Assembly: GCF_003044035.1 (NCBI RefSeq)
Contig: NZ_NVQC01000013.1
Span: 60,001 to 92,000 of the forward strand
Direction of reading: 5' to 3'
Origin: Candidatus Methylomirabilis limnetica
Lineage (GTDB): Bacteria; Methylomirabilota; Methylomirabilia; Methylomirabilales; Methylomirabilaceae
Length of the DNA: 32,000 bases
Each line of letters begins with the position of its first letter. The first letter of the stretch is position 1. The position numbers and the translations under genes were made by a program. Shown one piece after another: positions 1,673 through 19,199 of the stretch. Below the pieces are notes generated by a model. That model was not told where the DNA came from. It was given only the letters and a program-made list of their open reading frames with translations, and made no database searches.

Positions 1673-1702
1673 GCGATTGCTCGCAGGGCGCATCGCCATG
1701 AA
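1506..1702 (+). repeat. 197-bp direct repeat, copy A (GT2 3' end, 25-nt spacer, ATGAA)
   Basis: Aligns without gaps to 3124-3320. I counted 28 mismatches in 197 (about 86% identity). Confidence 0.85.
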
Positions 1703-2918: not shown

Positions 2919-2930
2919 AGGATTTTAAGT

Positions 2931-5702: not shown

Positions 5703-8474
5703 ATGAAAATAATACTAGTTCTATTAGGAATGCTGCTCACTTGTGGGCTGTCCGGGGCACTTCTGGTATTTACGTTTCGTGCAAACGACAATTCAAAAAG
5801 ACTCGTATTACATATTGGCTACGCCTATATATTGATTGCGTTTTATGTTTTGTACATGCAATTTAATTCTGCGTTTATCGCTACTGTGTTCACGGTGGCA
5901 TTGCCATTTATTTTGGCAGCACTAAGTCTACTAGCGCGTGGTTTAAAGTTCTGGGCAGGAACCAGAGTGACAGCACATCCCTCAAGCAAGACGGTTACCC
6001 GCATCCCGGGTAGGTTTTCATACCCTGTGGCAGCCAGTTTAGTCGTTGTTCTCTTGGCTGCTTGGCCGTATTTATTTTCAGGCTGGGGAGCTTATTGGCA
6101 TTCTGGAAATTACGACATGGAGGATGGCCTCAATGGGAGGGATGCCTATGTTACTAATCTGATAGCTGATACGCACTCATTCGATATGGGAGAAATTATC
6201 GGAGATAGGTCTTGGTATGACTTTGCCAAGGTTACAGGCACGTTGGCAAAAAAGGCGCGGGAGGCTGATTCGTACAAGGCGTGGTACGCCGGCGATGGAT
6301 TTCGTTTCCAATACAGCAGCCTTGCCTTCTGGTCCGTTCTTTTTGATGAATACCATGGGATTGATGTGCTGTTGATACAAGCAATCCTTAATTTGATTCT
6401 AATAACGGTTGGTATTTTCTATCTGTCCAGGCATGCTTTCTCCATGACACCTGCAGCTTCGGCGGCGGCATCAGTGATTTCAGCGAGCAGCACTTTTTAC
6501 TTAACAATTTTTTTTGCCGGGCATGTGGGTTCATTGATGTATGGAGCACTGATACCGGCACTGCTTTATCTGGTGCTAGCCAAAGATGATGCCAATCTGG
6601 ACATTAAACATAAACCGATTTTCGGTGGGTTAATCGTAGGTGCAATTGCATTCTCTTACCCCCACCCGCTGGCGATCCTTGGTTTGCCGTTATTGGTCTA
6701 CTGGTTATCATCTCTGGAATCGTTTCGTAGCCGCGTTACAGTCATTCGATCGGCAATTGAAAGAAATCCGCGCATTCTGTACATAACCATTCTCGTTTTT
6801 GCACTCGTAGTTATGATTGCACTGACAGGGTTGTGGTATGTAACCGAGGGATACAGGCTGAGACAGGATGGGCAGTACCGTGCATGGAGTTTCACCCATT
6901 GCTGGCTGATTGTTCCGCTTTTTCTTGGGCTGATACCTTCCCCCATGGAAGGGTCAATATTTGTTGGAAGTATTCTCGGTAAGACCGCTTACTTGGTGTT
7001 TATCCTGCTCTCGTCTTTGATAGCAGGAATACTGTTGGTTAGTTATTTCAAAACGAAAACTCTGAAAAATTCTGGATTTTTCCTGATATTCGGTCTTTTT
7101 TGGATTGTGGCGTATTTTGTGTTCAGATACTTCATCGTTGATAGTTATTACCTCTACAAATTTCTATACATCCATCAATTCATCTTCGTGATTGGCATCG
7201 TTGGTTACGTGTTTCACACGAAGTCGCGCGCTATTAAATTGCTTTGTGCCACTATCATCCTGGCTAACTTTGGTTCTGACTTGTACATGGCGTACGGGAT
7301 TTATCGCCGTCCGTATAACCAGAACGCGGAGCGCTACACGAGCTTGCTTCAACTTGACCGTACTTTATTGCAGAAGTCGTTTGTTGAGCTAACTGGAGGT
7401 GATGGAGTTTCAGTGCGGCAAACGCTGAAGGCACATGGTGTAGAGACGATACGTGATCCACGATTTGCAGATTACTTTATTGTCCCGTCCGGGCGCGAAT
7501 CAGACATTACTGGTGCTCAATTCACCGAAACAGTAGCTGAAATAGGTGGCCTTGCCATCAAGCGCGCCATAGCGAAAAATTACCTGATGATCCGCACATG
7601 GTTCGACCCCGAGCGGTTTTCTGCTGATCCTGTTTTGAAAAATACTGTGTTCCGGTGGATGGGGCATAGAAAAAATGACAATCTTGGCATCTATGTCATT
7701 CGTCCTAGTTCGGCTGATGAGATGCGGGATAACTACCTCAGAATCTGCTTTCAGAAAGGCCCAAGTGCAGAAGGGGCCATCAATATGGTCGTGTCTGCGG
7801 CTGGGAAGGAGGTTCTCAGCAAGTTCACGTTGGACGGTGGTGGCGTGTATTGCAAATGGATTCCATCTAAGCGGGTTGTGAGTGCCGAGCAGCCACTGGT
7901 TATTCGATCTGGGGCAAAGGGAAACAGTTTGCTCCCTCATGATGACAGAGTATTGCTGTATCGAGTTTTTGCGGTTGGCTGGTCGGATCGAATATATGAC
8001 GACAGGGCAATGACTTTCTTTAATGCAACTGAGGACATCGTCAAGGACAATCCCAAGAAAGCCGAAGACGGATTCACGCCTAGTGTTGCCCTTCACTTGG
8101 GGCAGGGTTGGGAGGCCTATGAAAACTTTGGTGGAGAGCATTTTCGCTGGGCGGGTCGCTCCACCGAACTCCTTCTGACGGGGGGCAACAATGACGGAGT
8201 AGCTAATGTTGTGCTTGATTTGGAACCGGGACCGAGCCACGGCAGTAGTCCTTTAAAGCTTGAAGTATTGGATAAAGATGGAAGCCTAGTTTTCACCAGT
8301 ACTACAATTACCGGCCGCAACACAGTCATGCTGCCTTTGAACTATCGCAAACAGCAGACTTCTGTGTACACATTAAGAACAAAAAGCGACAATCTACCAA
8401 TTTCTGGCGATCCCAGAGTACTTAACTATCGGGTGTTCAGCCTAGTACTATGTAACGTTTACAGTTGCGGATAA
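5703..8474 (+). CDS. Large polytopic membrane protein (about 14-16 predicted TM segments) with a soluble C-terminal half carrying two copies of the FRW...D.RVL.YRVF module; putative GT-C-type glycosyltransferase
   Basis: 923-aa ORF, markedly AT-richer than its surroundings. It has long hydrophobic stretches through about aa 530, then soluble sequence. The last 8 codons and the stop lie inside the IS630 end (see findings). The function is inferred from architecture and gene context only. Confidence 0.7.
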   Translation: MKIILVLLGMLLTCGLSGALLVFTFRANDNSKRLVLHIGYAYILIAFYVLYMQFNSAFIATVFTVALPFILAALSLLARGLKFWAGTRVTAHPSSKTVTRIPGRFSYPVAASLVVVLLAAWPYLFSGWGAYWHSGNYDMEDGLNGRDAYVTNLIADTHSFDMGEIIGDRSWYDFAKVTGTLAKKAREADSYKAWYAGDGFRFQYSSLAFWSVLFDEYHGIDVLLIQAILNLILITVGIFYLSRHAFSMTPAASAAASVISASSTFYLTIFFAGHVGSLMYGALIPALLYLVLAKDDANLDIKHKPIFGGLIVGAIAFSYPHPLAILGLPLLVYWLSSLESFRSRVTVIRSAIERNPRILYITILVFALVVMIALTGLWYVTEGYRLRQDGQYRAWSFTHCWLIVPLFLGLIPSPMEGSIFVGSILGKTAYLVFILLSSLIAGILLVSYFKTKTLKNSGFFLIFGLFWIVAYFVFRYFIVDSYYLYKFLYIHQFIFVIGIVGYVFHTKSRAIKLLCATIILANFGSDLYMAYGIYRRPYNQNAERYTSLLQLDRTLLQKSFVELTGGDGVSVRQTLKAHGVETIRDPRFADYFIVPSGRESDITGAQFTETVAEIGGLAIKRAIAKNYLMIRTWFDPERFSADPVLKNTVFRWMGHRKNDNLGIYVIRPSSADEMRDNYLRICFQKGPSAEGAINMVVSAAGKEVLSKFTLDGGGVYCKWIPSKRVVSAEQPLVIRSGAKGNSLLPHDDRVLLYRVFAVGWSDRIYDDRAMTFFNATEDIVKDNPKKAEDGFTPSVALHLGQGWEAYENFGGEHFRWAGRSTELLLTGGNNDGVANVVLDLEPGPSHGSSPLKLEVLDKDGSLVFTSTTITGRNTVMLPLNYRKQQTSVYTLRTKSDNLPISGDPRVLNYRVFSLVLCNVYSCG

Positions 8475-8878
8475 AGACGTTTCAGCTTGATCCGAGCGTC
8501 CGCCGTAGTGAATTGCCAATTGATTGTCCGTGTGCGGTTGTTTCGGTCTGTTGTCCAGGCGGCTACCTCTGCCTGCATGGTGGCCATGTCGGGAATACGA
8601 CGATCAAGGCACTGTCCTTTGAGGACGCTGAGTTCAATCTCAGCCATATTCAGCCAGCTCCCATGTTTGGGCGTGTAATGGATCTCAAGTCGCGCCGCCA
8701 GCCTCCTGGCATCCTCTGGTGGAAAGGCGTCATAGAGTGAGGCAATGCGGTGAGTGTTCAAGTTATCCAAAATCAGCCGTACCTTGATGGCGTGCGGATA
8801 CCGTACATCAAGCATCTGCTGGATCTGCCTCGCCCAATCCTTCGAGGTGCGATGCGCCGCCCTCTCTGCCAACATGAG
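8459..8878 (-). pseudogene. IS630-family transposase, C-terminal DDE part
   Basis: ...DWARQIQQMLDVRYPHAIKVRLILDNLNTHRIASLYDAF...LEIHYTPKHGSWLNMAEIELSVL... Confidence 0.85.
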
Positions 8879-8936
8879 TGAGACAGTGACCCCCCTGGAG
8901 TTTAATGTAGAAGAGGGCTGGGAAAGAGTTGGGTAA

Positions 8937-9341
8937 ATGAGTGAGTTGAGCGCAGCGGTTATCGCACCGGAGGTGGAGGTGACGGAGAAGGCAGCCCGGC
9001 GGCGGTTCAGCGCGGAGTACAAGCGCAGGATTCTCAAGGAGGCGGAGGCCTGCGGGACTGGGGAGATCGGCGCCTTGCTGCGGCGGGAAGGGTTGTACAG
9101 CTCCCACCTGACAGTATGGCGGGCGGCACGCGAGCGGGGCGAGATCGCGGGGCTGGCGCCGAAGAAGCGCGGACCCAAGGTCGTCCCTCCCGACCCGCGG
9201 GACCGGAAGATTGTCGAGCTCGAGCGCGAGACGCGGAGGTTGCAAGCTCGGCTCGAGCGGGCCGAGGCCCTGGTGGATCTCCAAAAAAAAGTCTCACTGA
9301 TCCTGGGGATCGCGCTTCCCGAAAGCGACGAGAAGCCATGA
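8937..9341 (+). CDS. IS3-family transposase OrfA (HTH plus leucine zipper)
   Basis: 134 aa: RRRFSAEYKRRILKEAEACGTGEIGALLRREGLYSSHLTVW...ELERETRRLQARLERAEALVDLQKK. Confidence 0.9.
   Translation: MSELSAAVIAPEVEVTEKAARRRFSAEYKRRILKEAEACGTGEIGALLRREGLYSSHLTVWRAARERGEIAGLAPKKRGPKVVPPDPRDRKIVELERETRRLQARLERAEALVDLQKKVSLILGIALPESDEKP
9283..9290 (+). other. Probable programmed -1 ribosomal frameshift site (A8 run) producing an OrfAB fusion
   Basis: CCAAAAAAAAG lies in the orfA/orfB overlap, and the orfB frame is -1 relative to orfA. This is the standard arrangement in the IS3 family. Confidence 0.6.
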
Positions 9342-10438
9342 TGCAGACCGTCGCCACTGTGAAAGATCGGCTGGGCGTCGCCCCGACCTGCGCGGCGATG
9401 GGACTGGCTCGCGCAAGCTTCTACCGGAGGCAGCGGCCGCAGCCGGTGCGCACCGCACGGCGCAGCCCGCCGCGAGCGCTCACGCCGTCGGAGCGCCAGA
9501 CCGCCCTGGCGGTGCTGCACGAGCCGCGATTCGCCGATCTTGCCCCGGCTCAGGTCTACACCCGGCTCCTCGATGAATACCGCTATCTGTGCTCGGAGCG
9601 GACCTTGTACCGGATTCTCGAGGAGAACCAGGAAGTGCGGGAACGCCGCGATCAGCTGCGCCATCCGGTCTACCAGAAGCCCGAGCTGCTGGCGACCGCC
9701 CCGAACCAGGTCTGGTCCTGGGATATTACCAAGCTGCTCGGACCGGTGAAATGGACCTACTACTACCTCTACGTGCTCCTGGACATCTTCAGCCGTTACA
9801 TCCCCGGCTGGCTGCTGGCCACCAGGGAGAGCGCCGCCTTGGCCACACATCTCATCGAGGAGACCTGCCGCCGCCAGGGGATCGAGCCGGGGCAGCTCAC
9901 GACGCACTCGGACCGCGGCCCCTCGATGACCAGCCAGCCCGTCGCCTTGCTGCTGGCGGACCTCGGGATCACCAAGTCGCTCTCGCGGCCGCATACCTCC
10001 AATGACAACCCGTACTCCGAATCTCAGTTCAAGACCCTAAAGTACCTTCCGGGTTTCCCGGACCGCTTCGGCTCCCTCCAGGATGGGCGGGGGTGCTGCG
10101 GCAGGCTTATCGACTGGTACAACACCGAACACCATCATTCGGGAATCGGCATGATGACCCCGGAGGCCGTCCACTACGGTCGGGCCCCGGTGATCCTCGC
10201 AGCCCGGCAGAGGACGTTGGATAAGGCCTTCGCCCTCCATCCGGAGAGATTCGTGCGCAACCCGCCCACTCATCAGGAAATACCCCAACAGGCATGGATC
10301 AATCCGCCAAAGCCGAAAAGGGATCTCCCGGTTGTCACAGGATCGACGATCGTCACGCAGGCCGACCTACGCATCGCGGGTTCCATGAACTTCTTGCAGA
10401 CCGAGGTGAGCCCACTGACAAAGAGAGTCGCACACTAA
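9338..10438 (+). CDS. IS3-family transposase OrfB (rve/DDE integrase core)
   Basis: MMQTVATVKDRLG...WSWDITKL...HSDRGPSMTSQPVALLLADLGITKSLSRPHTSNDNPYSESQFKTLKY...WYNTEHHHSGIG. The ATG overlaps the orfA stop (ATGA). Confidence 0.9.
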   Translation: MMQTVATVKDRLGVAPTCAAMGLARASFYRRQRPQPVRTARRSPPRALTPSERQTALAVLHEPRFADLAPAQVYTRLLDEYRYLCSERTLYRILEENQEVRERRDQLRHPVYQKPELLATAPNQVWSWDITKLLGPVKWTYYYLYVLLDIFSRYIPGWLLATRESAALATHLIEETCRRQGIEPGQLTTHSDRGPSMTSQPVALLLADLGITKSLSRPHTSNDNPYSESQFKTLKYLPGFPDRFGSLQDGRGCCGRLIDWYNTEHHHSGIGMMTPEAVHYGRAPVILAARQRTLDKAFALHPERFVRNPPTHQEIPQQAWINPPKPKRDLPVVTGSTIVTQADLRIAGSMNFLQTEVSPLTKRVAH

Positions 10439-10459
10439 ATGCCTACGGTCAGTGTCTCA

Positions 10460-11225
10460 AAGTCGTTGACAGGCTCCGTCGTGACCGCCACATGTCTTTT
10501 GCCGGCAAGCGGCTCGACTGCCATAAATATCTCGGCCACGCCGTTCCTGACATATTCGTCGTCAATGCGTGCCGGGCGTCTAGGTGCGCAGGGGATCGGC
10601 TGGTGCACTTCGCCGATCATCTGCTTGCAGGACTCATCCATGCACACCACCGGATAGTCAGGATCGTACGGCAGGTGATACACCGCCAGCACGTCCTCCA
10701 TATTGGCTACGAACGCCGCGCTCCCTTCCGGAGGGATTTTCCAGTACTTGCTGCGATGAGGCTGCAGTGCGTTTTTTTTAACGCTCGCTGTACGGTCATG
10801 TGTGATACGGACGCAACAAAGTTCAATTCGACGACCTTGTCGGCAAGGAGCCTGACCGTCCATCGCCGATGCCCCTCCGGGGCCTCGGCGCAGGCCAGGG
10901 CGATCAATCGTGCCTCAAACGCCCCATCAAACGTGACTTCCCGCGGCGGCTTCTCCCGTGGTTTTCGTTCAAGCGCGGCATCAAGTCCATCTTCTACAAC
11001 GCGTTTCTTGAGGTGCTCGATCGATCGGCTGCTGATCCCAAGGGCTTCCGCTGTATCGGCAACCGTCCAGGCCGGGCCGCATTCTCCGGCGTCACACAAC
11101 AACAGTGCTCGCGCATGTATGACTTTCCTCGCCTGCGTCTTGCCACGTTTCGTTACGGCATCCAGCTCCCTGCGCTCTTGCTCTGTAAGGGTCACGCGGT
11201 ATCTCGGCGACATGGCGGCCTCCAT
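10460..11225 (-). pseudogene. IS630-family transposase, N-terminal HTH and middle part, in two frames joined at an A8 run
   Basis: MSPRYRVTLTEQERRELDAVTKRGKTQARKVIHARALLL...MTVQRALKK. After the A8 run (complement of 10772-10779) the -1 frame continues NALQPHRSKYWKIPPEGSAAFVANMEDVLAVYH...VVCMDESCKQ. Confidence 0.8.
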
Positions 11226-11348
11226 TGTGAGGTTTCCGCCAGTATGCCATAGGTTGGCTAAATACGAAATACTAACTGTTACATGGTACTAGAATGGAAA
11301 GCATGAAGTCTGCATTGATGTGTAATATTCCAGCGCGGAGAGACGCCG

Positions 11349-12278
11349 GTGGCTAAGACTTCGTTTCGCTGGCTCCGACTTATCGGGATTCTGCTCTTCA
11401 TCTGGATTGTATTCCAAATTAACTGGATTACGGTATGGAAGCTTCTGAAGGAAATTCGGCCGGTTTATGTCGTTGGGTATTTCGTCGTATTTTTTATTGC
11501 TGTTTTGCTGAAGGTTGTTCGCTTGCGTTGGTTTTTATATCGCCTTGGCTATCGTGTGGCGTTCAGAGATGTATATCAGAGCGTGATTGAACCGGCGTTT
11601 TATGGCATGGTTACACCTGCGAGAATTGGAGAGTTTTCCAAGGTAATGTATTTGACGCGCTTTGGATTGAGCGCCCGCTTGGCATGGGGTGTTGTTTTGA
11701 TGGAGAGGCTGGTTGATTTTTCGGTTTTGTTGATGGCCAGCGTAGCCGGAGTTTTCTATTTCATGATTTTCGGTGTTGAGACCAGGGGTTTAACGCTCGT
11801 AGTGTTCTTAGCCTTGGTGGTTGTGCTGTATGTCTGTCTGATAAATATAGGGGGATTGAGCAGATTGGGTAGTCGTGTGATGGGGTTGTTTCCTTGGAAG
11901 CATCCTGCATATAATGACCTGTCGTCTTTAGGCGAAGGATTGGCCCGGCTTGGAAGATTGGCGGCATCCCTTTTCTTTCCATTCTCACTTGCGATCCTAA
12001 TCCTGTCGTTTGTCCAACTGTGGTTCTTGGGGCTGGCTTTGGAAGTGTCCGTTTCCGGGCTATATCTTGGTTTGGCCTATGCGTCTTCGTCCCTTGTGTC
12101 TCTGCTCCCGCTGTCAGTCGGCGGGCTTGGAACGAGGGAGGCTGTATATATCGGCCTTCTGCACCGGCAGGGTGTTTCTTCCGACATGGCGATAACGATC
12201 TCATTACTCGATGGACTGGTTTTCTCCATGATGGCACAGCTGATCCTGCTCATTCCCATTGCATGGAAAAGAAATTGA
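11349..12278 (+). CDS. Flippase-like membrane protein (UPF0104 / lysyl-phosphatidylglycerol-synthase TM-region family)
   Basis: 309 aa with a GTG start and multiple TM segments. Characteristic ...FYGMVTPARIGEFSKVMYL... and C-terminal ...LPLSVGGLGTREAVYIGLL... Confidence 0.75.
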   Translation: MAKTSFRWLRLIGILLFIWIVFQINWITVWKLLKEIRPVYVVGYFVVFFIAVLLKVVRLRWFLYRLGYRVAFRDVYQSVIEPAFYGMVTPARIGEFSKVMYLTRFGLSARLAWGVVLMERLVDFSVLLMASVAGVFYFMIFGVETRGLTLVVFLALVVVLYVCLINIGGLSRLGSRVMGLFPWKHPAYNDLSSLGEGLARLGRLAASLFFPFSLAILILSFVQLWFLGLALEVSVSGLYLGLAYASSSLVSLLPLSVGGLGTREAVYIGLLHRQGVSSDMAITISLLDGLVFSMMAQLILLIPIAWKRN

Positions 12279-12279
12279 G

Positions 12280-12936
12280 ATGGGAAAGCTTGAGTTAGTG
12301 CTCCGATCAATCAGGCGGCGCGGTTTGTTGAATACCGTGCGTTATTTGTCTCACGAGGTAGGATTTGATCTTAAGTATGGAACAGACACAAAACCTGAAA
12401 TGGCTGATTACGTCTTGGCAGGCCAGTATCTTGATAACTACCGCGCGCCATGTCAAGGCGCCAACCCGTGGATTGTTAATCAATGCTTTGACGAACTATC
12501 ACGGCTCGGTGTTCAGCCTGAACAGAGTGCTTTTCTGGATTTTGGCTCAGGGAAGGGCAGAGTCATGCTCATGGCTTTGATGGCTGGTTTTAGACGCGTC
12601 ATTGGCGTGGAGCTGGATCCGGCGCTATGTAAAATCACATCACATAACCTTGATGGGAACCCTACCCTTTTCATGCGTGACCAATGCATCGTGTGCAACG
12701 AGGACGCAACCCAATACATCCCGCCGGCCGACATCAATGTTGTTTTCCTATATAACCCTTTTGGATGCGAGCTGGTTCGCGCAGTCATGCTGAATTTGCT
12801 CCTGTCATTCCGTGCATCCCGTCGGCCGATTTATGTTATCTACGTTAATCCAGTATGCGCCCAAGTGCTCATCGAATGTGGTTTGAGGCCTGTATCAGAG
12901 ATCGCCGGCGAAGCGAAGATATTCATGATTGCTTAG
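12280..12936 (+). CDS. Class I SAM-dependent methyltransferase
   Basis: The ATG lies 1 nt after the upstream stop. Motif I is FLDFGSGKGRVMLMA and motif II-like is VIGVELD. Confidence 0.75.
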   Translation: MGKLELVLRSIRRRGLLNTVRYLSHEVGFDLKYGTDTKPEMADYVLAGQYLDNYRAPCQGANPWIVNQCFDELSRLGVQPEQSAFLDFGSGKGRVMLMALMAGFRRVIGVELDPALCKITSHNLDGNPTLFMRDQCIVCNEDATQYIPPADINVVFLYNPFGCELVRAVMLNLLLSFRASRRPIYVIYVNPVCAQVLIECGLRPVSEIAGEAKIFMIA

Positions 12937-12950
12937 AAAGGCAGGTATCA

Positions 12951-13826
12951 GTGAAAACCATAAAAGAATCCGTTAGCATCATCATTCCGGCATACCAGGA
13001 AGCCGCGAATATTTCCTCTGTGGTTGCCAAGGTCAAAGCGGTCTTGCAAACGCTTCCTTGCGAGAGTGAAGTCATCGTCGTTTGCGACGGCTCTACCGAC
13101 GGCACGGGGGATGTTGCCGAAGCCGCAGGGGCGAATGTTGTCAGGCACCCGTACAACAAAGGCTATGGGGCGGCTTTGAAAACCGGCATCCGCGCGGCTG
13201 CCGGGCGGACCGTCGTTTTCATTGATGCGGACGGGCAGCATGACGCGAATGACATTTTTCGCTTGGTGGCCGAACGCCAAACCTACGACATGGTTGTGGG
13301 CGCCCGAAAGGGGACGGCGGGCTCCCCGCTGATGCGCAAGCCTGGAAAGATATTCCTCGGTTGGCTGGCCAACCGCCTGACCGGGCGGAAGATACCGGAT
13401 CTGAATTCCGGCTGCCGTGCGGTGGATCGCGAAATGGCCCTGCGTTTCCTGCCGTTGCTGCCCAATGGTTTTTCATTTTCAACCACCGCGACCATTGCGG
13501 CGTTCAAGGGCGGCTACACGGTCAAGCACATTCCGATCGAGGTGGCCAGGCGCGCAGGGAAAAGCACGGTGTCCGTGGCGGATGGTTTCAATACCATCAT
13601 GCTGATTATCCGCATCGTCACCTTGTTTGCCCCGTTGCGAGTATTCTTGCCGATAAGCCTCGCCACGTTTCTGATCGGGGCCGGATTTACCATCAACAGC
13701 TACTATACGGTGGGTGAATCGAGCCTTCGCGGATTGATCGCTTTATTGGCATCGGTTCATTTTTTTCTGTTTGGCATTTTGGTTGATCAGGTGGTTGCCA
13801 TTCGTCGGGGGGAGCACATTCAATGA
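12951..13826 (+). CDS. GT2 polyprenyl-phosphate glycosyltransferase (GtrB/ArnC/DPM1-like) with two C-terminal TM helices
   Basis: GTG start. VSIIIPAYQEAANI...VIVVCDGSTDGTGDVA...PYNKGYGAALKTGI...VVFIDADGQHD, followed by two hydrophobic helices at the C-terminus. Confidence 0.85.
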   Translation: MKTIKESVSIIIPAYQEAANISSVVAKVKAVLQTLPCESEVIVVCDGSTDGTGDVAEAAGANVVRHPYNKGYGAALKTGIRAAAGRTVVFIDADGQHDANDIFRLVAERQTYDMVVGARKGTAGSPLMRKPGKIFLGWLANRLTGRKIPDLNSGCRAVDREMALRFLPLLPNGFSFSTTATIAAFKGGYTVKHIPIEVARRAGKSTVSVADGFNTIMLIIRIVTLFAPLRVFLPISLATFLIGAGFTINSYYTVGESSLRGLIALLASVHFFLFGILVDQVVAIRRGEHIQ

Positions 13827-14467
13827 AACAGTCAGTCCGTGGACTTCCACAGAGAATTTTGGATGCGCTGTTTTTCCCAATAAGAGCTTTATTCGTGCCG
13901 GAGGAACGTTCCTTCGGTCTGACTTCATTGCGCGATGAACGATTTGAAATCGTCGCCATGCATGCCAAGGGCAAAGTTCTCGACATCGGCTGTGGAAAGG
14001 ACAACCTGTTTATCAAAAACTGGTGCGATCATCCGGAGAGTGTCGGGATTGATGTCTACGCCTACGGCGGCGTTGAACGGGTACATCAGGATATGACCCA
14101 CTTGCCGTATGCGGACAATACCTTTGACACGGTCACTTTGATCGCGGTCGGGGGGCATATTCCGGAAAACGTGCGCGTGAAAGAATTTGTGGAAATTGCG
14201 AGGGTGTTAAAGCCCGGCGGAAATCTGCTCATGACCGAAGGCGAACCCGTTACGCAGACGGTTGGACATCTATGGCGGCATTTCTCTTATGCGGTCATCG
14301 GGAAGAAGGATATGGACAGCGAGCGCGGTATGGAGGAAGACGAGCAGTACTGCATGCCGTTCAATGAAATCATGGGTTACTTGAATGCCCCTCCCCTTAA
14401 ATTTACCAAGCAGGTAAAATTTATGTGGGGGCTGAATAATCTTTATGTTGCGCAGAAGTCAAATTGA
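13823..14467 (+). CDS. Class I SAM-dependent methyltransferase (Methyltransf_11-like)
   Basis: ATGA overlap with the upstream stop. VLDIGCGKDN ... FDTVTLIAVGGHI ... VLKPGGNLLMTEG. Confidence 0.8.
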   Translation: MKQSVRGLPQRILDALFFPIRALFVPEERSFGLTSLRDERFEIVAMHAKGKVLDIGCGKDNLFIKNWCDHPESVGIDVYAYGGVERVHQDMTHLPYADNTFDTVTLIAVGGHIPENVRVKEFVEIARVLKPGGNLLMTEGEPVTQTVGHLWRHFSYAVIGKKDMDSERGMEEDEQYCMPFNEIMGYLNAPPLKFTKQVKFMWGLNNLYVAQKSN

Positions 14468-14540
14468 GTTAAAGGCGGCGTGGTGAAAAAATACCAGATT
14501 GATCGCTCCCCCAAGGGTTGAATAATAAAAGAGGTAAGCA

Positions 14541-15344
14541 ATGGGAAAACAGCAGATGCCGACTGAAAAAAGTGAACTGTCCGAGTCACAGCAGAATTCA
14601 ATTGAGTATCAAAAAAAGCGATACAATAATGAGGCCCAAGAGCATGTGAGGCATCATGGGGATCAGTATAGCCAGTTGTACCGTACAGAATTTATCCGAA
14701 GCAAACTTTTTGATTTCGATTTGCAGGGCAAGGTTGTACTCGATGCCATGTGCGCATCGGGAATCGAGACGGAATATTTAATCTCGAAAGGTGCAATAGT
14801 TACCGGCTTGGATATATCTGAGCGGAACGCTGAAATGTACCGAGAGAAATGGCATCGAGAATGTGTCGCTACCAGCATACACGATACGAAACTGGCCCAG
14901 GCCTCATTCGATGTGGTTTATATATTCGGAGGGTTGCATCATGTTATCCCTTGTCTTGGGGAAACAATCCGAGAGGTTTATCGGTTATTAAAGCCGGGAG
15001 GGCATTTTGTATTTGTCGAGCCCAATAAGGATACATGGTTCAACGCACTCCGAATGGTTTGGTACCGTTTCGATAGTCGATTTCAAAAAGACGAAGAAGC
15101 GTTAAGTTATAAAGACCAGCTGCGTCCTTTCCTTGAATCGGGGTTCAGGGAAGTCGCTTTCTTCACTGGCGGAAATATTGCGTACCTCCTGATCAGCCAA
15201 TCCTTAATCATCGGAACGCCCACTCGCTGGAAAAAATGGCTTTACCCGATTCTTTCTAATCTTGAGCGGCTTGTTACCCGCGTCCCAATACTGCCAAGGT
15301 TATTTTTGGCTGCAGTGTGGCAAAAATATCCAGATAGAAATTGA
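14541..15344 (+). CDS. Class I SAM-dependent methyltransferase
   Basis: VLDAMCASGIETEYL...VTGLDIS...FDVVYIFGGLHHV...LLKPGGHFVFVEPN. An AGAGG ribosome-binding site lies upstream. Confidence 0.8.
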   Translation: MGKQQMPTEKSELSESQQNSIEYQKKRYNNEAQEHVRHHGDQYSQLYRTEFIRSKLFDFDLQGKVVLDAMCASGIETEYLISKGAIVTGLDISERNAEMYREKWHRECVATSIHDTKLAQASFDVVYIFGGLHHVIPCLGETIREVYRLLKPGGHFVFVEPNKDTWFNALRMVWYRFDSRFQKDEEALSYKDQLRPFLESGFREVAFFTGGNIAYLLISQSLIIGTPTRWKKWLYPILSNLERLVTRVPILPRLFLAAVWQKYPDRN

Positions 15345-15354
15345 AGGGGACGGT

Positions 15355-16383
15355 TTGCAAAACTATCAGGTTGTGGACTGTCATGCAGATTCCATTGATA
15401 ACTGGAATGCGTTCGTACAAAAGAACAATGGCAATTACTGTCACCTCTACCACTGGCGCGATGTCATACGTAATTCGTATGGGCTGATGACATTCTATCT
15501 TGCGATTGTTCGTGAATCGGAATGGGTTGGTATTCTGCCGTTGGCTCTTGTTCCCGGCGTTGGTGGGCGCAGCGCCGTCTCTGTCCCTTATTGTAATTAT
15601 GGGGGGCTCTTGGTTGCCAACGACTCCGATCCGGTTCTTGTAATGAAGGCTGCGCTGTCCTTTCTTACAGACAAAGGAATTCATCGAGTAGAAGTCAGGG
15701 AGTTATGTCACCCAGGGGACGTTTTCTCTTCAGAAGAAGTTACCTTGATCCTGGAGCTTCCCGATAGCCGTGATCTGTTTTGGAAAATGATCGGCGACAA
15801 GGTGCGCAATCAAGTGCGCAAGGCTGAAAAAGCGGGGCTTGAAGTTCAGTGGGGCCGTGAGCAAGCACCTGACTTGTACGAGGTTTACGCGGATAACATG
15901 GGACGGCTGGGCACGCCGGTTCATCCGCGGGCTTTTGTGGACGAGATACTATCATCCTTCGGGGATGATGCGGATGTCCTGACGGTTCGCCTGCAAGGGC
16001 GCGCGATTGCGGCGATGTTGGTGCTTAAATTCGGCGATACCTGGATAGACCCGATTGCTTCCAGTCTGGTTGAGTTCAGACATCTGAATCCCAATATGAT
16101 TTTGTATTGGGAGGCGTTGCAACGGGCCATGGCCGCCGGAATGCGCCGTTTTGATTTTGGCCGCAGCAAGCGGGATTCAGGTACATACAAGTTCAAGCAA
16201 CAATGGGGGGCGACGGAAGTTCCGTTGAACTATCATTCATACGAGAAGGGTGTTCGGGTTTCATCGGCATCTACGGATCTCTATCGCGGCAACAAGGCAG
16301 TGATGTTCGCCAGGGTCTGGTCGGTGCTGCCGGGCCGTATTCAGCGCATTCTCGGTCCAAAAATCAGGCGGTACATTCCATGA
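15355..16383 (+). CDS. FemAB-family / GNAT-fold acyl- or aminoacyl-transferase of the type found next to deacetylases in PEP-CTERM/exosortase EPS loci
   Basis: ...NWNAFV...YHWRDVI...VRNQVRKAEKAGLEV...MRRFDFGRSKRDSGTYKFKQQWGA.... The start is uncertain (TTG 15355 or GTG 15373). The listed ATG at 15262 overlaps the upstream gene by 83 nt. Confidence 0.65.
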   Translation: MQNYQVVDCHADSIDNWNAFVQKNNGNYCHLYHWRDVIRNSYGLMTFYLAIVRESEWVGILPLALVPGVGGRSAVSVPYCNYGGLLVANDSDPVLVMKAALSFLTDKGIHRVEVRELCHPGDVFSSEEVTLILELPDSRDLFWKMIGDKVRNQVRKAEKAGLEVQWGREQAPDLYEVYADNMGRLGTPVHPRAFVDEILSSFGDDADVLTVRLQGRAIAAMLVLKFGDTWIDPIASSLVEFRHLNPNMILYWEALQRAMAAGMRRFDFGRSKRDSGTYKFKQQWGATEVPLNYHSYEKGVRVSSASTDLYRGNKAVMFARVWSVLPGRIQRILGPKIRRYIP

Positions 16384-17261
16384 ACATTCAGCACAAACAT
16401 TTTCTTACCTTCGATGTGGAGCATTGGTACGAAGGATATCGCTATCGAGGAATGAGCGGCTGGGAGGGGATCGCCCCCCGAGATCATATTATCGTCGAGC
16501 GGCTCTTTGATTCGTTGGGAAAACATAATCAGAAGGCCACATTCTTTTTCACCGGGCGCTTTGCGAAAGATTTTCCGGGATTGGTCAGGCGGTGTGCCGA
16601 ACTCGGCCACGAAGTGGCATCCCACTCCTATGAACACAGAGTGATTAGGCGGATAGCAAGTAGGGAAGAATTTAGACAAGACCTGCGTGATTCCCTTAAT
16701 ATCCTTGCCGACCTTTGCGGGAAACCCATTTTGGGCTATCGCGCCACAAAATGGTCAGTAACTCCGGATAATCAAGAGTGGGTGATGTCCATCCTTGCCG
16801 AGGAAGGGCTGAGTTACGACAGTAGTTTTTTCCCGACATTTGGGGCGGATGAGCTCCGGCGAAACGGGAGACCATTACTGATTGATTTGCCTGGTGGGCG
16901 GCAGATTCTTGAAATCCCAGCATCCGGTTTGAATTTTGGGCCACTCTGTGTTCCCGTCGCCGGCGGTCTTTATTTCCGTGCTTTTCCGGCCTGGATAACT
17001 TTGGCAATGTTGAAACAGAAAGAGCGGCAGGGTCTTTGCGGGATGTTGTGTGTGCATCCCTACGATCTTGACCTGGATAGCCCTAACATTGCTGGGGGTG
17101 GGATCCTGTTTCGGTTGTTTCGAGCTTACGGTGTGGCGCAGGCATGGGGGCGGTTAGATCGTTTGCTGAGCTTGAAGAAATTCACCAGTATTGCGGACTG
17201 GATCCAGTCCGCTCCATCGGATTTATGCCGAATTAATTATAGGGACGTGAAGAATGACTGA
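16380..17261 (+). CDS. Polysaccharide deacetylase (NodB homology domain with C-terminal extension)
   Basis: ATGA overlap with the upstream stop. LTFDVEHWYEG...KATFFFTGRFA...GHEVASHSYEH...ILGYRA... Confidence 0.85.
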   Translation: MNIQHKHFLTFDVEHWYEGYRYRGMSGWEGIAPRDHIIVERLFDSLGKHNQKATFFFTGRFAKDFPGLVRRCAELGHEVASHSYEHRVIRRIASREEFRQDLRDSLNILADLCGKPILGYRATKWSVTPDNQEWVMSILAEEGLSYDSSFFPTFGADELRRNGRPLLIDLPGGRQILEIPASGLNFGPLCVPVAGGLYFRAFPAWITLAMLKQKERQGLCGMLCVHPYDLDLDSPNIAGGGILFRLFRAYGVAQAWGRLDRLLSLKKFTSIADWIQSAPSDLCRINYRDVKND

Positions 17262-17469
17262 AACAACCATCGCGGTAGTCGGACTCGGCTATGTTGGCTT
17301 GCCCCTTGCTGTTGAATTGATCTGGGCCAGCCCCCGTGAACTGCTCAATATCATTCAAGCCGACGTCATTGGCTGCCATATCATTACCGTGACACAAGAT
17401 CTTTTGAAGAAATCGCACCTCATTGGCAAGGATCTGCATGAGTACTCACTCGACACCGTCAAGATGTTT

Positions 17470-17783
<314 letters not shown>

Positions 17784-18490: not shown

Positions 18491-18572
18491 TGAAATGTAA
18501 GTCCTCCTTTCTGATCCGATAGCTACGTAAATTGTACCATAGTTATGGACTGCACCCTTAAGTTTGGACGGT

Positions 18573-18899: not shown

Positions 18900-19199
<300 letters not shown>

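What the first reader, a model, noticed from the sequence alone, without database searches (positions are those of the whole stretch)
5703..17261. Arn/Gtr-like lipid-carrier glycosylation set with FemAB-type transferase, deacetylase and three methyltransferases
Before the IS630 insertion, the 923-aa polytopic protein was followed 42 nt later by a tightly packed operon. Stops and starts overlap or lie 1-14 nt apart, except for two gaps: 73 nt before the third methyltransferase and about 10-28 nt before the FemAB-like gene, whose start is uncertain.
The set contains the three parts of the known periplasmic glycan-modification scheme (GtrA/B/C and ArnC/E-F/T). These are a GT2 with two C-terminal TM helices (12951-13826), a flippase candidate of the UPF0104 / MprF-flippase-type family (11349-12278), and a large GT-C-like membrane protein (5703-8474).
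It also has a NodB-fold deacetylase (16380-17261). ArnD, which acts on undecaprenyl-phosphate-linked Ara4FN, belongs to that fold. A FemAB-like enzyme (15355-16383) and three SAM methyltransferases complete the set.
Inference: a lipid-linked amino sugar is deacetylated, then N-acylated or aminoacylated and/or methylated, then flipped and transferred outside the cytoplasm. The FemAB plus deacetylase pairing is known from PEP-CTERM/exosortase EPS loci, but its chemistry is not established. The whole block is AT-richer than its flanks, which suggests import as a unit.
Basis: inference. Interest (0 to 1): 0.65.

Follow-up and report, generated by a model that had tools for sequence, protein, structure and literature searches.

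The report
Lipid-carrier sugar-editing module for surface glycan
This is a conserved gene set that probably loads an amino sugar onto a membrane lipid carrier, swaps its acetyl group for an amino acid or acyl group, flips it across the membrane and attaches it to a surface polysaccharide. It combines known enzyme types in a way not yet described, and the copy in this window is damaged by mobile elements.

Summary
Gene coordinates, spacings, the IS630 insertion and the "42 nt" reconstruction are all correct. Pfam and NCBIfam confirm the MprF-type flippase-like protein, the GT2, the FemAB-like enzyme, the CE4+DUF3473 deacetylase and two methyltransferases. The third methyltransferase is weak but has N-methyltransferase motifs.

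- The 923-aa protein models confidently. Its only consistent structural matches are GT-C enzymes (AglB, PglB, STT3, ArnT, AftD), though E-values and TM-scores are weak. It has invariant D138/D141 in the first long periplasmic loop and two C-terminal beta-sandwich domains.
- The five-gene core recurs in about 10 independent loci from several phyla, in shuffled gene order, inside O-antigen-type loci.
- The GT2's best solved relatives are ArnC, GtrB and DPMS.

New points:
- Relatives carry adjacent TviB/TviC genes, so the sugar is probably GalNAcA. This window keeps only 20 codons of tviB.
- The deacetylase plus FemAB chemistry has a published precedent (VimE/VimA, N-seryl or N-glycyl uronic sugars).
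- GT + deacetylase + UPF0104 trios are known for aminoglycolipids (hexSDF, gpgSDF), which gives a rival reading.

Verdict: a new variant of the three-component periplasmic glycosylation scheme. No step has been shown biochemically. The copy here is IS-ridden and may be inactive.

The parts
5703..8474 (+). 923-aa polytopic protein, a predicted GT-C-like periplasmic transferase. It has 14 predicted TM helices, an alpha-helical periplasmic loop (127-220) with invariant D138/D141, and two C-terminal beta-sandwich (CBM-like) domains. Its last 9 codons (from about 8445) derive from the IS630 element.
   Evidence: No Pfam or NCBIfam hit. 41 homologues found. AF2 pLDDT 87.7 and 85.2. GT-C enzymes are the top Foldseek matches. 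Topology follows the family-averaged positive-inside rule. The C-terminus was reconstructed.
8445..11291 (-). IS630-family element with TA target duplication. It is inactivated by a nested IS3-family element (about 8877-10436; orfA 8937-9341 +, orfB 9116-10438 +).
   Evidence: DDE_3, rve and HTH_Tnp_1 hits. Split transposase ORFs. Terminal inverted repeats read.
11292..11306 (+). Displaced native end of the 923-aa gene (codons EWKA plus stop). It is followed by the 42-nt spacer before the next gene.
   Evidence: In-silico excision restores ...RVFSLEWKA*, comparable in length to the homologues' ...RVFSITLQ*.
11349..12278 (+). UPF0104 / LPG_synthase_TM (MprF flippase-domain, 'PplT') membrane protein. 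It is the candidate flippase for the edited lipid-linked sugar.
   Evidence: PF03706 E 3.1e-35 and TIGR00374 66.6 bits (cut-off 43.2). Conserved in all related loci at 27-42% identity. Fused to an MT1-like domain in L004.
12280..12936 (+). MT1, a divergent class I methyltransferase-like protein with N-methyltransferase-type motifs.
   Evidence: Only sub-threshold Pfam hits, all to N-methyltransferases (DOT1, PrmA, RsmD-like, Erm). Motif I LDFGSGKGR, VIGVELD and YNPF are conserved in four orthologues.
12951..13826 (+). GT2 polyprenyl-phosphate glycosyltransferase candidate (ArnC/GtrB/DPMS type) with two C-terminal TM helices.
   Evidence: PF00535 E 1e-26. Best NCBIfam hits are PpgS, AglJ, Dol-P-hexose transferase and ArnC, all below their equivalog cut-offs. 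Best PDB matches are ArnC, GtrB (sll0501) and DPMS. TM helices. DGSTD and DAD motifs. 67-72% identical across phyla.
13823..14467 (+). MT2, a SAM methyltransferase (Methyltransf_11 type).
   Evidence: PF08241 E 6.7e-11. Orthologues in L001, L008, L015, L017 and L094.
14541..15344 (+). MT3, a SAM methyltransferase (Methyltransf_11 type), preceded by a 73-nt gap. This is the lowest-GC part of the operon.
   Evidence: PF08241 E 9.6e-18. Orthologues in L002, L011 and L094. GC profile.
15355..16383 (+). FemAB-like (Acetyltransf_6) N-acyl or aminoacyl transferase, VimA/HfsK-like.
   Evidence: PF13480 E 1.9e-22 and PF02388 E 4.4e-10. TIGR03019 scores 260.2 bits against a cut-off of 260.35. 43-55% identical in related loci. 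Fused to a hexapeptide acetyltransferase in P0199/L095.
16380..17261 (+). CE4 (NodB-fold) deacetylase with a DUF3473 C-terminal domain, VimE-like.
   Evidence: PF01522 + PF11959. TIGR03006 scores 162.6 bits, below its cut-off of 276. PDB matches are PgdA-type deacetylases. FDVEH and HSYEH motifs.
17254..17505 (+). Chimeric remnant ORF. The first ~20 codons of a TviB-like UDP-GlcNAc 6-dehydrogenase are joined to the last 64 codons of a HAD-transaldolase gene. It marks the truncated right edge of the module.
   Evidence: NCBIfam hits to TviB/NDP-sugar dehydrogenase N-terminus and to transaldolase. tblastn: 70% identity to L001 TviB residues 9-28 and 75% to L004 HAD-TAL residues 360-423.
62..3290 (+). 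Upstream low-GC glycan genes, separated from the 923-aa gene by the IS256 region: a GT2 (62-1672), a 419-aa protein (1659-2918) and a 119-aa two-TM protein (2931-3290).
   Evidence: Pfam. The GT2 is 44% identical to the 652-aa GT2 that lies two genes upstream of the 9xx-aa gene in L001. GC 0.515.
4075..5319 (-). IS256-family (Mutator) transposase gene, followed by an IS3 orfA-like fragment (5213-5587). Both are inserted between the upstream glycan genes and the 923-aa gene.
   Evidence: PF00872 E 1.9e-55. ORF translations.

Best explanation
The block is a periplasmic, lipid-carrier ('three-component', Gtr/Arn-like) glycan-modification module that includes a built-in sugar-editing step.

**Proposed path**
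1. A UDP-N-acetyl-hexosamine, most likely UDP-GalNAcA made by TviB/TviC-type enzymes, is transferred by the membrane-anchored GT2 onto polyprenyl phosphate at the cytoplasmic face.
2. The CE4/DUF3473 deacetylase removes the 2-N-acetyl group.
3. The FemAB-like enzyme re-acylates the freed amine. By analogy with VimA it probably uses an amino acid from aminoacyl-tRNA.
4. Variable tailoring enzymes then modify the product: methyltransferases here, a hexapeptide acetyltransferase in relatives.
5. The UPF0104/MprF-type membrane protein flips the edited lipid-linked sugar.
6. The 923-aa GT-C-like enzyme holds the polymer with its C-terminal beta-sandwich domains and transfers the sugar onto an O-antigen-type polysaccharide in the periplasm.

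**What is shown**
Gene content, domain families, predicted fold and topology, and conserved co-occurrence.

**What is inferred**
Every substrate, the order of editing relative to lipid loading, the acyl donor, the flippase role and the acceptor.

In this particular genome the module is interrupted by IS elements and has lost the adjacent tviB/tviC. It may be impaired or dependent on genes elsewhere.
For: **Domains**
- The GT2 is closest to ArnC, GtrB and DPMS, has two C-terminal TM helices and keeps DxD motifs.

**The 923-aa protein**
- The models are confident.
- GT-C enzymes are the only consistent Foldseek class.
- It has 14 predicted TM helices, and all invariant residues (D138, D141, R146, H274, Y319, R385, R393, W395, D480, Y482/483, K486) lie on the predicted periplasmic side.
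- Its architecture (alpha-helical periplasmic loop domain plus C-terminal beta domain) matches the GT136 ORF12 of a proven three-component O-antigen system (PMC11127046).

**Co-occurrence**
- The five-gene core recurs in about 10 independent loci across phyla, with permuted gene order.
- These loci sit next to Wzm/Wzt, ManC, Gmd/Fcl or WecA-like genes.

**The variable transferase slot**
- In L025, PMT_2 (a bona fide GT-C family) occupies the slot next to a 61%-identical GT2.
- Other large polytopic proteins occupy it in L015 and L017. This is the GtrC-like pattern of a variable transferase.

**The sugar**
- TviB-like and TviC-like genes adjoin the module in L001, L002 and L011; L017 has an adjacent TviB-like gene.
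- The window keeps a tviB stub.

**Gene fusions**
- LPG_synthase_TM is fused to MT1 in L004.
- Fem is fused to a hexapeptide acetyltransferase in L095.

**Published precedents**
- VimE deacetylase + VimA (which matches TIGR03019) install N-Ser or N-Gly on a uronic amino sugar (PMC7468200).
- UPF0104 proteins are predicted flippases in archaeal glycosylation neighbourhoods (PMC5898192).
Against: - No biochemical data exist for any protein of this module.
- GT-C similarity is at fold level only. Foldseek E-values for the TM domain are 0.1-3 and TM-scores 0.3-0.41.
- hhalign finds no similarity to a PMT_2 protein, and no Pfam GT-C family matches.
- The acidic loop follows the fourth helix rather than the first. 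This requires three extra N-terminal helices and rests on a positive-inside count, not on coordinates.
- The flippase candidate belongs to a family whose experimentally studied members are associated with glycerolipids (Lys-PG, GlcN-PG, HNHDRG), not polyprenyl-P-sugars.
- The FemAB-like and deacetylase proteins score at or below the NCBIfam cut-offs.
- Editing could occur on the UDP-sugar, as assumed for Vim.
- tviB/tviC are missing from the window and are absent within 10 kb in L004 and L008, so GalNAcA is not assured.
- IS256 and IS630/IS3 separate the 923-aa gene from both neighbouring gene sets.
Confidence: 0.6

Rival explanations
1. Aminoglycolipid end-product (hexSDF/gpgSDF-like). The GT2, deacetylase and UPF0104 protein would make and flip an amino-sugar-bearing membrane glycerolipid, further N-acylated and methylated. 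This lipid would be the final product and would alter membrane charge. The 923-aa protein would have a separate role in the polysaccharide locus.
For: GT + deacetylase + UPF0104 operons make GlcN-PG in P. aeruginosa (gpgSDF, PMC12713373) and HNHDRG in C. difficile (hexSDF, PMC10128005). Many metagenomic relatives of the GT2 (42-53% identity) sit next to a CE4 deacetylase and/or a UPF0104 protein without a 923-family gene.
Against: - GpgS is a GT4 and HexS an MGDG-synthase type. The GT here is the ArnC/GtrB/DPMS type with C-terminal TM helices.
- The 9xx-aa GT-C-like gene, or another large polytopic protein or PMT_2, is always adjacent.
- The module lies inside O-antigen-type loci with Wzm/Wzt, not in lipid-metabolism contexts.
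Confidence: 0.12
2. Editing happens at the nucleotide-sugar level (Vim/Wbp-like). The deacetylase and Fem-like enzyme would convert UDP-HexNAc(A) to UDP-HexN(acyl)(A) in the cytoplasm. Only then would the GT2 load it on the carrier, or add it directly to a growing chain. The lipid-linked intermediate would not itself be edited.
For: The Wbp/Vim pathway is drawn with VimE and VimA following the nucleotide-sugar Wbp steps, although their position in that pathway is stated to be unknown (PMC7468200). Both enzymes here lack TM segments.
Against: - In Arn, lipid loading precedes deformylation by the NodB-fold enzyme ArnD. The same order is reported for the Francisella, Bordetella and mycobacterial PpgS systems (from general knowledge).
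- The fusion of the UPF0104 membrane domain to the MT1-like tailoring domain in L004 places at least one tailoring step at the membrane.
- The GT2 is 67-72% identical across loci whose tailoring enzymes differ. This fits a common unedited substrate such as UDP-HexNAc(A).
Confidence: 0.15
3. Lipid A or core modification (a true Arn/Lgm/Flm analogue). The edited amino sugar would be transferred to lipid A phosphates or the core to change surface charge, not to O-antigen or EPS.
For: The GT2 is closest to ArnC among solved structures. ArnT is among the fold matches. A NodB-fold deacetylase step parallels ArnD.
Against: - The 923-aa protein carries about 380 residues of tandem beta-sandwich, CBM-like domains. 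Their Foldseek matches are carbohydrate-binding modules and BcsB. The polysaccharide-modifying GT136 enzyme has a similar domain, and ArnT is too short (541-residue chain) to carry one.
- The module is embedded in Wzm/Wzt, ManC and Gmd/Fcl loci.
- The ArnC and ArnD equivalog cut-offs are missed by a wide margin (67 vs 529 bits; 18 vs 382 bits).
Confidence: 0.08
4. In this genome the block is a decaying remnant. IS256, IS630 and IS3 insertions and the loss of tviB/tviC would have silenced or orphaned it, so it currently does nothing.
For: - IS256 lies upstream, and IS630 with a nested IS3 sits inside the 3' end of the 923-aa gene.
- tviB is reduced to 20 codons fused to a transaldolase fragment.
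- Three gmd fragments and toxin-antitoxin genes lie downstream.
Against: - All eight module ORFs are full length compared with their relatives.
- The IS630 insertion changes only the last four residues.
- Sugar-precursor genes may exist elsewhere in the genome, and L004 and L008 also lack adjacent tviB/tviC.
- This concerns activity in one strain, not what the module is.
Confidence: 0.3

Closest known systems
Three-component periplasmic glycosylation systems: GtrA/B/C, and the C. youngae O1/O2 system with the GT136 enzyme ORF12 (Kelly et al. 2024, PMC11127046)
   Same: - A lipid-linked monosaccharide donor is made at the cytoplasmic face, flipped, and used by a GT-C enzyme to decorate an already made O-antigen.
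- The module is embedded in O-antigen loci.
- The transferase has a polytopic core, an alpha-helical periplasmic loop domain and a C-terminal beta-rich carbohydrate-binding domain.
- The transferase slot is variable while the donor-making genes are conserved.
   Different: - The flippase candidate is UPF0104/MprF-type, not GtrA, SMR or MATE.
- The 923-aa family has no sequence similarity to known GT-C families and has three extra N-terminal helices.
- The set adds deacetylase, FemAB-like and methyltransferase editing steps that those systems lack.
ArnC/ArnD/ArnE-F/ArnT, together with the Francisella FlmF2/NaxD/FlmK, Bordetella LgmABC and mycobacterial PpgS/Rv3779 routes (the last three from general knowledge)
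   Same: A GT2 loads an N-acylated amino sugar on polyprenyl phosphate. A deacylase unmasks the amine on the lipid-linked sugar. The sugar is flipped and a GT-C transfers it. The GT2's best structural relatives are ArnC proteins, and PpgS is its top NCBIfam hit.
   Different: - The equivalog cut-offs are not met.
- Those systems stop at the free amine and target lipid A or arabinogalactan.
- Here a FemAB-like enzyme and methyltransferases follow, the likely sugar is a uronic acid, and the context is O-antigen.
Wbp/Vim pathway of Porphyromonas gingivalis and Tannerella forsythia: VimE deacetylase + VimA (Veith et al. 2020, PMC7468200)
   Same: A CE4 deacetylase is paired with a TIGR03019-type FemAB-like enzyme, acting on an N-acetylated amino uronic sugar. 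VimA determines which amino acid (Ser or Gly) replaces the acetyl group. TviB/TviC-type uronic-acid precursor genes are linked to the module in relatives.
   Different: - No polyprenyl-P GT2, UPF0104 protein or GT-C is part of the Vim set as described in that paper.
- The Vim sugar is a linking sugar for T9SS cargo.
- Direct sequence similarity of the window proteins to VimA and VimE could not be tested here.
hexSDF (C. difficile, PMC10128005) and gpgSDF (P. aeruginosa, PMC12713373)
   Same: The three-gene logic is the same: a glycosyltransferase adds a HexNAc to a lipid, a deacetylase unmasks the amine, and a UPF0104/MprF-like protein is the proposed flippase.
   Different: - Their transferases are GT4 or MGDG-synthase types acting on glycerolipids, and the aminoglycolipid is the end product.
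- They have no GT-C, no FemAB-like enzyme and no polysaccharide locus.
Caulobacter holdfast HfsH (deacetylase) and HfsK (Fem-like GNAT) (PMC5362036), and the PEP-CTERM/exosortase EPS pair TIGR03006 + TIGR03019
   Same: A deacetylase and a Fem-like N-acyltransferase are proposed to act in sequence on a polysaccharide precursor. The window proteins' best NCBIfam models are these two.
   Different: - No exosortase or PEP-CTERM gene appears in the gene tables of the related loci.
- The deacetylase scores well below the TIGR03006 cut-off.
- The HfsK donor is unknown.
Archaeal AglD-type GT2-UPF0104 fusions and their neighbourhoods (Makarova et al. 2015, PMC5898192)
   Same: UPF0104 is predicted to flip lipid-linked sugars. 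It is found next to Dol-P-type GT2 enzymes and PMT/STT3-like proteins, or next to a deacetylase plus a GT.
   Different: Those are archaeal, aimed at protein N-glycosylation, and purely predicted. They include no FemAB-like enzyme.

Membership tests
GT-C fold glycosyltransferases | Predicted 3D fold resembles solved GT-C enzymes | tested here: met
   For the TM-domain model (pLDDT 85.2), the top Foldseek PDB hits are AglB (prob 0.98), STT3B (0.96, TMq 0.41), PglB (0.94) and ArnT (0.72), then AftD, PimE and DPY19. Non-GT-C hits have prob 0.06 or less. The full-length model hits AftD, PglB and Stt3 with prob 1.0. The similarity is weak in absolute terms (E 0.1-3, TM 0.3-0.41).
GT-C fold glycosyltransferases | Conserved acidic residue(s) in the first long extracytoplasmic loop | tested here: met
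   D138 and D141 (motif GNxDxEDGLNGRDAY) are invariant in 33 sequences. They lie in loop 127-220, which the family-averaged positive-inside rule predicts to be periplasmic. The loop follows helix 4, so three extra N-terminal helices must be assumed.
GT-C fold glycosyltransferases | Sequence membership in a curated GT-C family (PMT_2, PMT, STT3, Glyco_transf_22 and similar) | tested here: not met
   No Pfam or NCBIfam hit at E<=0.01. hhalign of the family profile against a PMT_2 protein gives probability 0.3%.
GT-C fold glycosyltransferases | Uses a polyprenyl-phosphate-linked sugar donor | not testable with these tools
   Inferred only from adjacency to an ArnC/GtrB-type GT2.
Three-component (Gtr/Arn-type) periplasmic glycosylation systems | GT2 polyprenyl-phosphate glycosyltransferase with C-terminal membrane anchor | tested here: met
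   PF00535 hit. The best PDB relatives are ArnC, GtrB and DPMS. Two C-terminal hydrophobic helices. All specific equivalog cut-offs are missed, so the substrate is unassigned.
Three-component (Gtr/Arn-type) periplasmic glycosylation systems | Flippase of the GtrA, SMR (ArnE/F) or MATE type | tested here: not met
   None of the module's products matches a GtrA, SMR or MATE family in Pfam or NCBIfam. The only polytopic candidate besides the transferase is a UPF0104/PF03706 protein.
Three-component (Gtr/Arn-type) periplasmic glycosylation systems | Genes co-located, within or beside a glycan biosynthesis locus | tested here: met
   About 10 loci carry the set. Wzm/Wzt, ManC, Gmd/Fcl or WecA-like genes are adjacent in L001, L007, L011 and L002.
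TIGR03019 (FemAB family, XrtA/PEP-CTERM-associated; the family VimA matches) | Score at or above the curated cut-off | tested here: inconclusive
   260.2 bits against a cut-off of 260.35, full-length match 2-330/330.
TIGR03006 (XrtA system polysaccharide deacetylase) | Score at or above the curated cut-off | tested here: not met
   162.6 bits against a cut-off of 276.2. The Polysacc_deac_1 + DUF3473 architecture is shared.
PEP-CTERM/exosortase EPS loci | Exosortase (EpsH/XrtA) and PEP-CTERM proteins in the locus | tested here: not met
   No exosortase family appears in the gene and Pfam tables of L001-L005 or among the window ORFs scanned. The rest of the genome was not available.
MprF flippase domain / UPF0104 (PplT) | Match to PF03706 / TIGR00374 above the curated cut-offs | tested here: met
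   PF03706 122.6 bits (cut-off 33.4). TIGR00374 66.6 bits (cut-off 43.2).
MprF flippase domain / UPF0104 (PplT) | Lipid translocation activity | not testable with these tools
   It is unproven even for GpgF and HexF.
hexSDF / gpgSDF aminoglycolipid operons | Glycerolipid-directed glycosyltransferase (GT4 or MGDG-synthase type) | tested here: not met
   The transferase is a GT2 of the ArnC/GtrB/DPMS type. GpgS is a GT4 and HexS an MGDG-synthase type.
ArnC / ArnD equivalogs | NCBIfam equivalog cut-offs | tested here: not met
   ArnC model: 67.3 bits against 529. ArnD model: 17.9 bits against 382.

The most novel reading that the evidence does not exclude
The module may be a previously undescribed bacterial route that builds an N-aminoacyl amino-uronic 'linking-type' sugar on a polyprenyl-phosphate carrier; in some versions the sugar would also be N-methylated or N-acetylated. 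The sugar would be exported by a UPF0104/MprF-type flippase, which would be the first such role for that family. It would then be installed on O-antigen by a new GT-C family.
The FemAB-like enzyme plus the MprF-type flippase would then amount to a 'split MprF' working on a glycan carrier instead of phosphatidylglycerol. The product could serve as a charge-modifying decoration or as an amine handle for covalent attachment of proteins to LPS, as in T9SS A-LPS.
Probability: 0.2. Interest if true: 0.8.

Novelty: new variant of a known kind. Interest (0 to 1): 0.55.

Why it matters
If correct, the finding has four consequences:
- It adds a new GT-C family, a candidate for a new CAZy family.
- It gives the widespread but poorly understood UPF0104/PplT 'flippase' family a concrete, testable substrate class, namely polyprenyl-P-linked amino sugars.
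- It links the Vim-type deacetylase/FemAB chemistry, so far inferred by genetics and mass spectrometry in Bacteroidota and only speculated for PEP-CTERM loci, to O-antigen decoration in Proteobacteria, Acidobacteria and Ignavibacteria-type organisms.
- It explains how amino-acid-bearing amino uronic sugars could be added after polymerisation in ABC-transporter-dependent O-antigen pathways.

All carriers found so far are uncultured or known only from metagenome-assembled genomes, so its practical impact is limited for now.

Tried and rejected
- **ORF 10294-11292 (+), 332 aa.** It looked like the first operon gene. I rejected it as antisense to the split IS630 transposase.
- **Sequence link between the 923-aa family and known GT-C families.** Pfam and NCBIfam give no hit. 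hhalign against a PMT_2 protein and against the L017 744-aa protein finds nothing. BLASTP against the L015 and L017 polytopic proteins finds nothing.
- **PDB sequence searches.** The FemAB-like and UPF0104 proteins have no hits.
- **Model coordinates.** Topology therefore had to be inferred from DSSP helices and family-averaged K/R counts, not from geometry.
- **Literature search for 'LPG_synthase_TM' + glycosyltransferase.** No papers. The useful papers came from the UPF0104/MprF-like and TIGR03019 searches.
- **ArnC, ArnD, PpgS or AglJ orthology.** Rejected because all equivalog cut-offs are missed by a wide margin.
- **Exosortase/PEP-CTERM association.** Not seen in any gene table.
- **Organism identity.** Not established. 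The contig is a metagenome assembly (ENA ERZ4201063 NODE_42).

Full report
**1. What is in the window**

The region is a low-GC glycan-biosynthesis stretch broken up by mobile elements.

On the + strand, reading left to right:
- A GT2 (62-1672), a 419-aa protein and a 119-aa two-TM protein.
- An IS256-family transposase on the - strand (4075-5319), plus an IS3 orfA-like fragment.
- The 923-aa polytopic ORF (5703-8474).
- An IS630-family element whose transposase is split by a nested IS3 (orfA 8937-9341, orfB 9116-10438).
- A tight operon from 11349 to 17261.

The IS630 termini can be read directly. The left inverted repeat begins at about 8445 and the right one ends at about 11291, each flanked by TA. 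The element therefore sits inside the last codons of the 923-aa gene. Excising it in silico gives a 918-aa protein ending ...RVFSLEWKA*, close to the ...RVFSITLQ* of homologues. The restored stop lies 42 nt before GTG 11349. The '+' ORF 10294-11292 is antisense to the IS630 transposase and is not a gene.

Operon boundaries agree with independent gene calls on the source contig, a 152-kb ENA metagenome contig.

**2. Domain assignments**

| Coordinates | Assignment | Evidence |
|---|---|---|
| 11349-12278 | UPF0104 / LPG_synthase_TM | PF03706 E 3e-35; TIGR00374 above cut-off |
| 12280-12936 | MT1, N-methyltransferase-like | Sub-threshold hits, all to N-methyltransferases (DOT1, PrmA, RsmD-like, Erm); four orthologues conserve LDFGSGKGR, VIGVELD and YNPF |
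| 12951-13826 | GT2 | Best NCBIfam models PpgS, AglJ, Dol-P-hexose transferase and ArnC, all below cut-offs; best solved relatives ArnC, GtrB and DPMS; two C-terminal TM helices; DGSTD and DAD motifs |
| 13823-14467 | MT2 | Methyltransf_11 |
| 14541-15344 | MT3 | Methyltransf_11 |
| 15355-16383 | FemAB-like | Acetyltransf_6/FemAB; TIGR03019 260.2 bits vs cut-off 260.35 |
| 16380-17261 | Deacetylase | CE4 + DUF3473; TIGR03006 162.6 vs 276.2; FDVEH and HSYEH motifs present |

**3. The 923-aa protein**

It has no Pfam or NCBIfam match. Only 41 homologues turned up in 5.8 billion clustered proteins; none has a functional annotation ('hypothetical protein' at most). A profile search over 1.84 billion representatives finds 277 clusters at E<1e-30. 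Many of those hits cover only a C-terminal module of about 125 residues, which is repeated in many other proteins.

The AF2 models are confident: full length pLDDT 87.7, pTM 0.86, and TM domain alone pLDDT 85.2, pTM 0.89.

Foldseek results against the PDB:
- The full-length model hits AftD, PglB and yeast Stt3 with probability 1.0. The C-terminal half hits many CBM and beta-sandwich proteins and BcsB.
- With the TM domain alone, the only hits with appreciable probability are GT-C enzymes: AglB 0.98, STT3B 0.96, PglB 0.94, ArnT 0.72, then AftD, PimE and DPY19. Transporters score 0.06 or less.
- Absolute similarity is weak (E 0.1-3, TM 0.3-0.41). This is a fold-class assignment, not family membership. 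hhalign against a PMT_2 protein finds nothing.

Family-averaged K/R counts give a self-consistent topology with 14 TM helices, N-terminus out and C-terminus out. Helix 106-126 plays the role of the canonical GT-C TM1. Loop 127-220 is then the first long periplasmic loop, and it carries the invariant D138 and D141. All other invariant polar residues also lie on the periplasmic side.

The overall architecture is a polytopic core, a small alpha-helical periplasmic domain and a C-terminal beta domain. This is the architecture described for GT136 ORF12, the proven transferase of a three-component O-antigen system (PMC11127046).

**4. Conservation of the set**

Contexts of 923-family members show the same five-gene core: 9xx-aa protein, GT2, FemAB-like enzyme, UPF0104 protein and deacetylase.
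- It occurs in L001, L002/3/9 (Sulfuricella MAG), L004, L007 (Acidobacteria), L008 (Bryobacterales), L011 (Proteobacteria), L013 (Melioribacter) and L094. A protein on L094 is named Polynucleobacter sp. by NCBI. L026 carries part of the set.
- Gene order differs between loci.
- The GT2 is 67-72% identical even where the 9xx-aa protein is only 27-30% identical.
- The methyltransferases and a WcaF-like hexapeptide acetyltransferase come and go.
- Two fusions tie the tailoring enzymes to the pathway. UPF0104 is fused to MT1 in L004. The Fem-like enzyme is fused to a hexapeptide acetyltransferase in L095.
- Neighbouring genes include Wzm/Wzt, ManC, Gmd/Fcl and a WecA-like gene, which points to ABC-transporter-type O-antigen loci. 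L015 is a Wzx-type locus.

A GT2-seeded metagenome scan shows that the transferase slot is variable.
- L015 and L017 have the module but carry unrelated large polytopic proteins in that slot.
- L025 has a 61%-identical GT2 followed directly by a PMT_2 GT-C.
- More distant GT2 relatives (42-53% identity) often sit beside a CE4 deacetylase, a UPF0104 protein or a TviB-like dehydrogenase.

**5. Which sugar**

In L001, L002 and L011 the module adjoins a TviB-like UDP-GlcNAc 6-dehydrogenase (484-542 bits) and a TviC-like 4-epimerase (about 500 bits). Together these enzymes make UDP-GalNAcA. L017 also has an adjacent TviB-like gene.

In the window, the ORF that overlaps the deacetylase stop (17254-17505) begins with about 20 codons that are 70% identical to that TviB. 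It then continues as the last 64 codons of a HAD-transaldolase gene.

Downstream lie gmd fragments (17604-17783, 19017-19199, 22149-22556) around an intact gmd (20186-21295), together with toxin-antitoxin genes. The right edge of the module is therefore a rearrangement scar, and tviB/tviC are gone from this locus.

**6. Mechanism**

1. The GT2 loads HexNAc(A), probably GalNAcA, on polyprenyl phosphate.
2. The deacetylase frees the 2-amine.
3. The Fem-like enzyme re-acylates it.
4. Variable enzymes tailor the product.
5. The UPF0104 protein flips it.
6. The GT-C-like enzyme adds it to the polysaccharide in the periplasm.

The deacetylase/Fem step has a published precedent. In P. gingivalis and T. 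forsythia, VimE (a CE4 enzyme) and VimA (which matches TIGR03019) replace a 2-N-acetyl with Ser or Gly on a uronic amino sugar. Swapping vimA between the species switches the amino acid (PMC7468200). Caulobacter HfsH and HfsK form a second, less well defined pair (PMC5362036).

MprF itself combines an aminoacyl-tRNA-dependent transferase domain with the UPF0104 flippase domain. The Fem-like enzyme plus the UPF0104 protein therefore look like a split analogue of MprF acting on a glycan carrier. This is inference.

MT1's N-methyltransferase-type motifs suggest that an amine is methylated. This too is inference.

**7. Rivals**

- **Aminoglycolipid end product.** GT + deacetylase + UPF0104 trios make aminoglycolipids as final products (gpgSDF, PMC12713373; hexSDF, PMC10128005). 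Against this, the GT type differs, a GT-C-like partner is always present, and the context is O-antigen.
- **Editing on the UDP-sugar.** This cannot be excluded.
- **A lipid A or core target.** This is less likely, given the CBM-like domains and the locus context.
- **An inactive copy.** Independently of the above, the copy in this window may be inactive because of the IS insertions and the loss of tviB/tviC. All of its ORFs are nevertheless intact.

**8. Novelty and verdict**

The parts and the general scheme are known. Comparative genomics had already predicted UPF0104 flippases in archaeal glycosylation neighbourhoods (PMC5898192).

My literature searches found no description of this specific combination:
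- an ArnC/GtrB-type GT2;
- a Vim-type deacetylase and FemAB-like pair;
- variable methyl- and acetyltransferases;
- a UPF0104 flippase candidate;
- an unclassified GT-C-like family with tandem beta-sandwich domains.

The set is conserved across phyla in O-antigen loci. I class it as a new variant of a known kind. It is of moderate interest and is entirely a prediction.

Noticed in passing
window 8445-11291 (nested element about 8877-10436): An IS3-family element is inserted inside the transposase gene of an IS630-family element. The IS630 element itself is inserted at a TA inside the last codons of the 923-aa gene, replacing its last 4 residues with 9 IS-encoded ones.
   Followed up: yes
window 17254-17505: This is a chimeric 83-aa ORF. 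About 20 codons of a TviB-like UDP-GlcNAc dehydrogenase start are fused in frame to the last 64 codons of a HAD-transaldolase gene. That gene is 75% identical to the one in the heptose-like sugar cluster of L004.
   Followed up: yes
window 17604-17783, 19017-19199, 22149-22556 and 20186-21295: Three fragments of GDP-mannose 4,6-dehydratase genes (two N-terminal, one C-terminal) are scattered around one intact gmd. They suggest repeated recombination between O-antigen loci.
   Followed up: partly
window 17901-18724 and 19303-19764: Toxin-antitoxin-like genes (PIN domain with a Phd/YefM antitoxin, and a MazE-like antitoxin) lie between the glycan gene fragments.
   Followed up: no
window 25295-26050: An ISL3-family transposase fragment is present here. 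A GT4 glycosyltransferase gene (26705-28180, - strand) lies further downstream. The whole window is a mosaic of glycan genes and mobile elements.
   Followed up: no
window 7620-8440 (residues ~640-760 and ~800-920 of the 923-aa protein): Two tandem copies of a beta-sandwich module of about 125 residues (motifs FRW.G, GPS..G, R[IV]L.[FY]RVF) have no Pfam model. The profile search finds this module, often in 2-6 copies, in many unrelated-length proteins (roughly 270-1300 aa). It looks like an undescribed, mobile carbohydrate-binding-type domain.
   Followed up: partly
L004 15287-16960; L095 1124-2713: Two gene fusions occur in relatives. UPF0104/LPG_synthase_TM is fused to the MT1-like methyltransferase domain (557 aa). 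The FemAB-like enzyme is fused to a hexapeptide-repeat acetyltransferase (529 aa).
   Followed up: partly
L015 389-2245; L025 6070-8091; L029 8345-10288: Asparagine-synthase or GATase-type amidotransferases, of the enzyme type of WbpS, recur near relatives of the GT2. This fits uronic acid to uronamide conversion, as in the Wbp/Vim pathway.
   Followed up: no
L017 7693-9927: This 744-aa polytopic protein occupies the transferase slot. It has no detectable sequence similarity to the 923-aa family, but it also has an acidic motif (YWEMAYATGDDASRW) in the loop after its fourth hydrophobic helix. It may be a very distant analogue.
   Followed up: partly
window 14541-15344: MT3 is the lowest-GC segment of the operon (about 0.45) and is preceded by the only sizeable gap (73 nt). 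Relatives carry either an MT2-type or an MT3-type gene after the GT2, whereas the window and L094 carry both. This suggests modular gain of MT3.
   Followed up: partly
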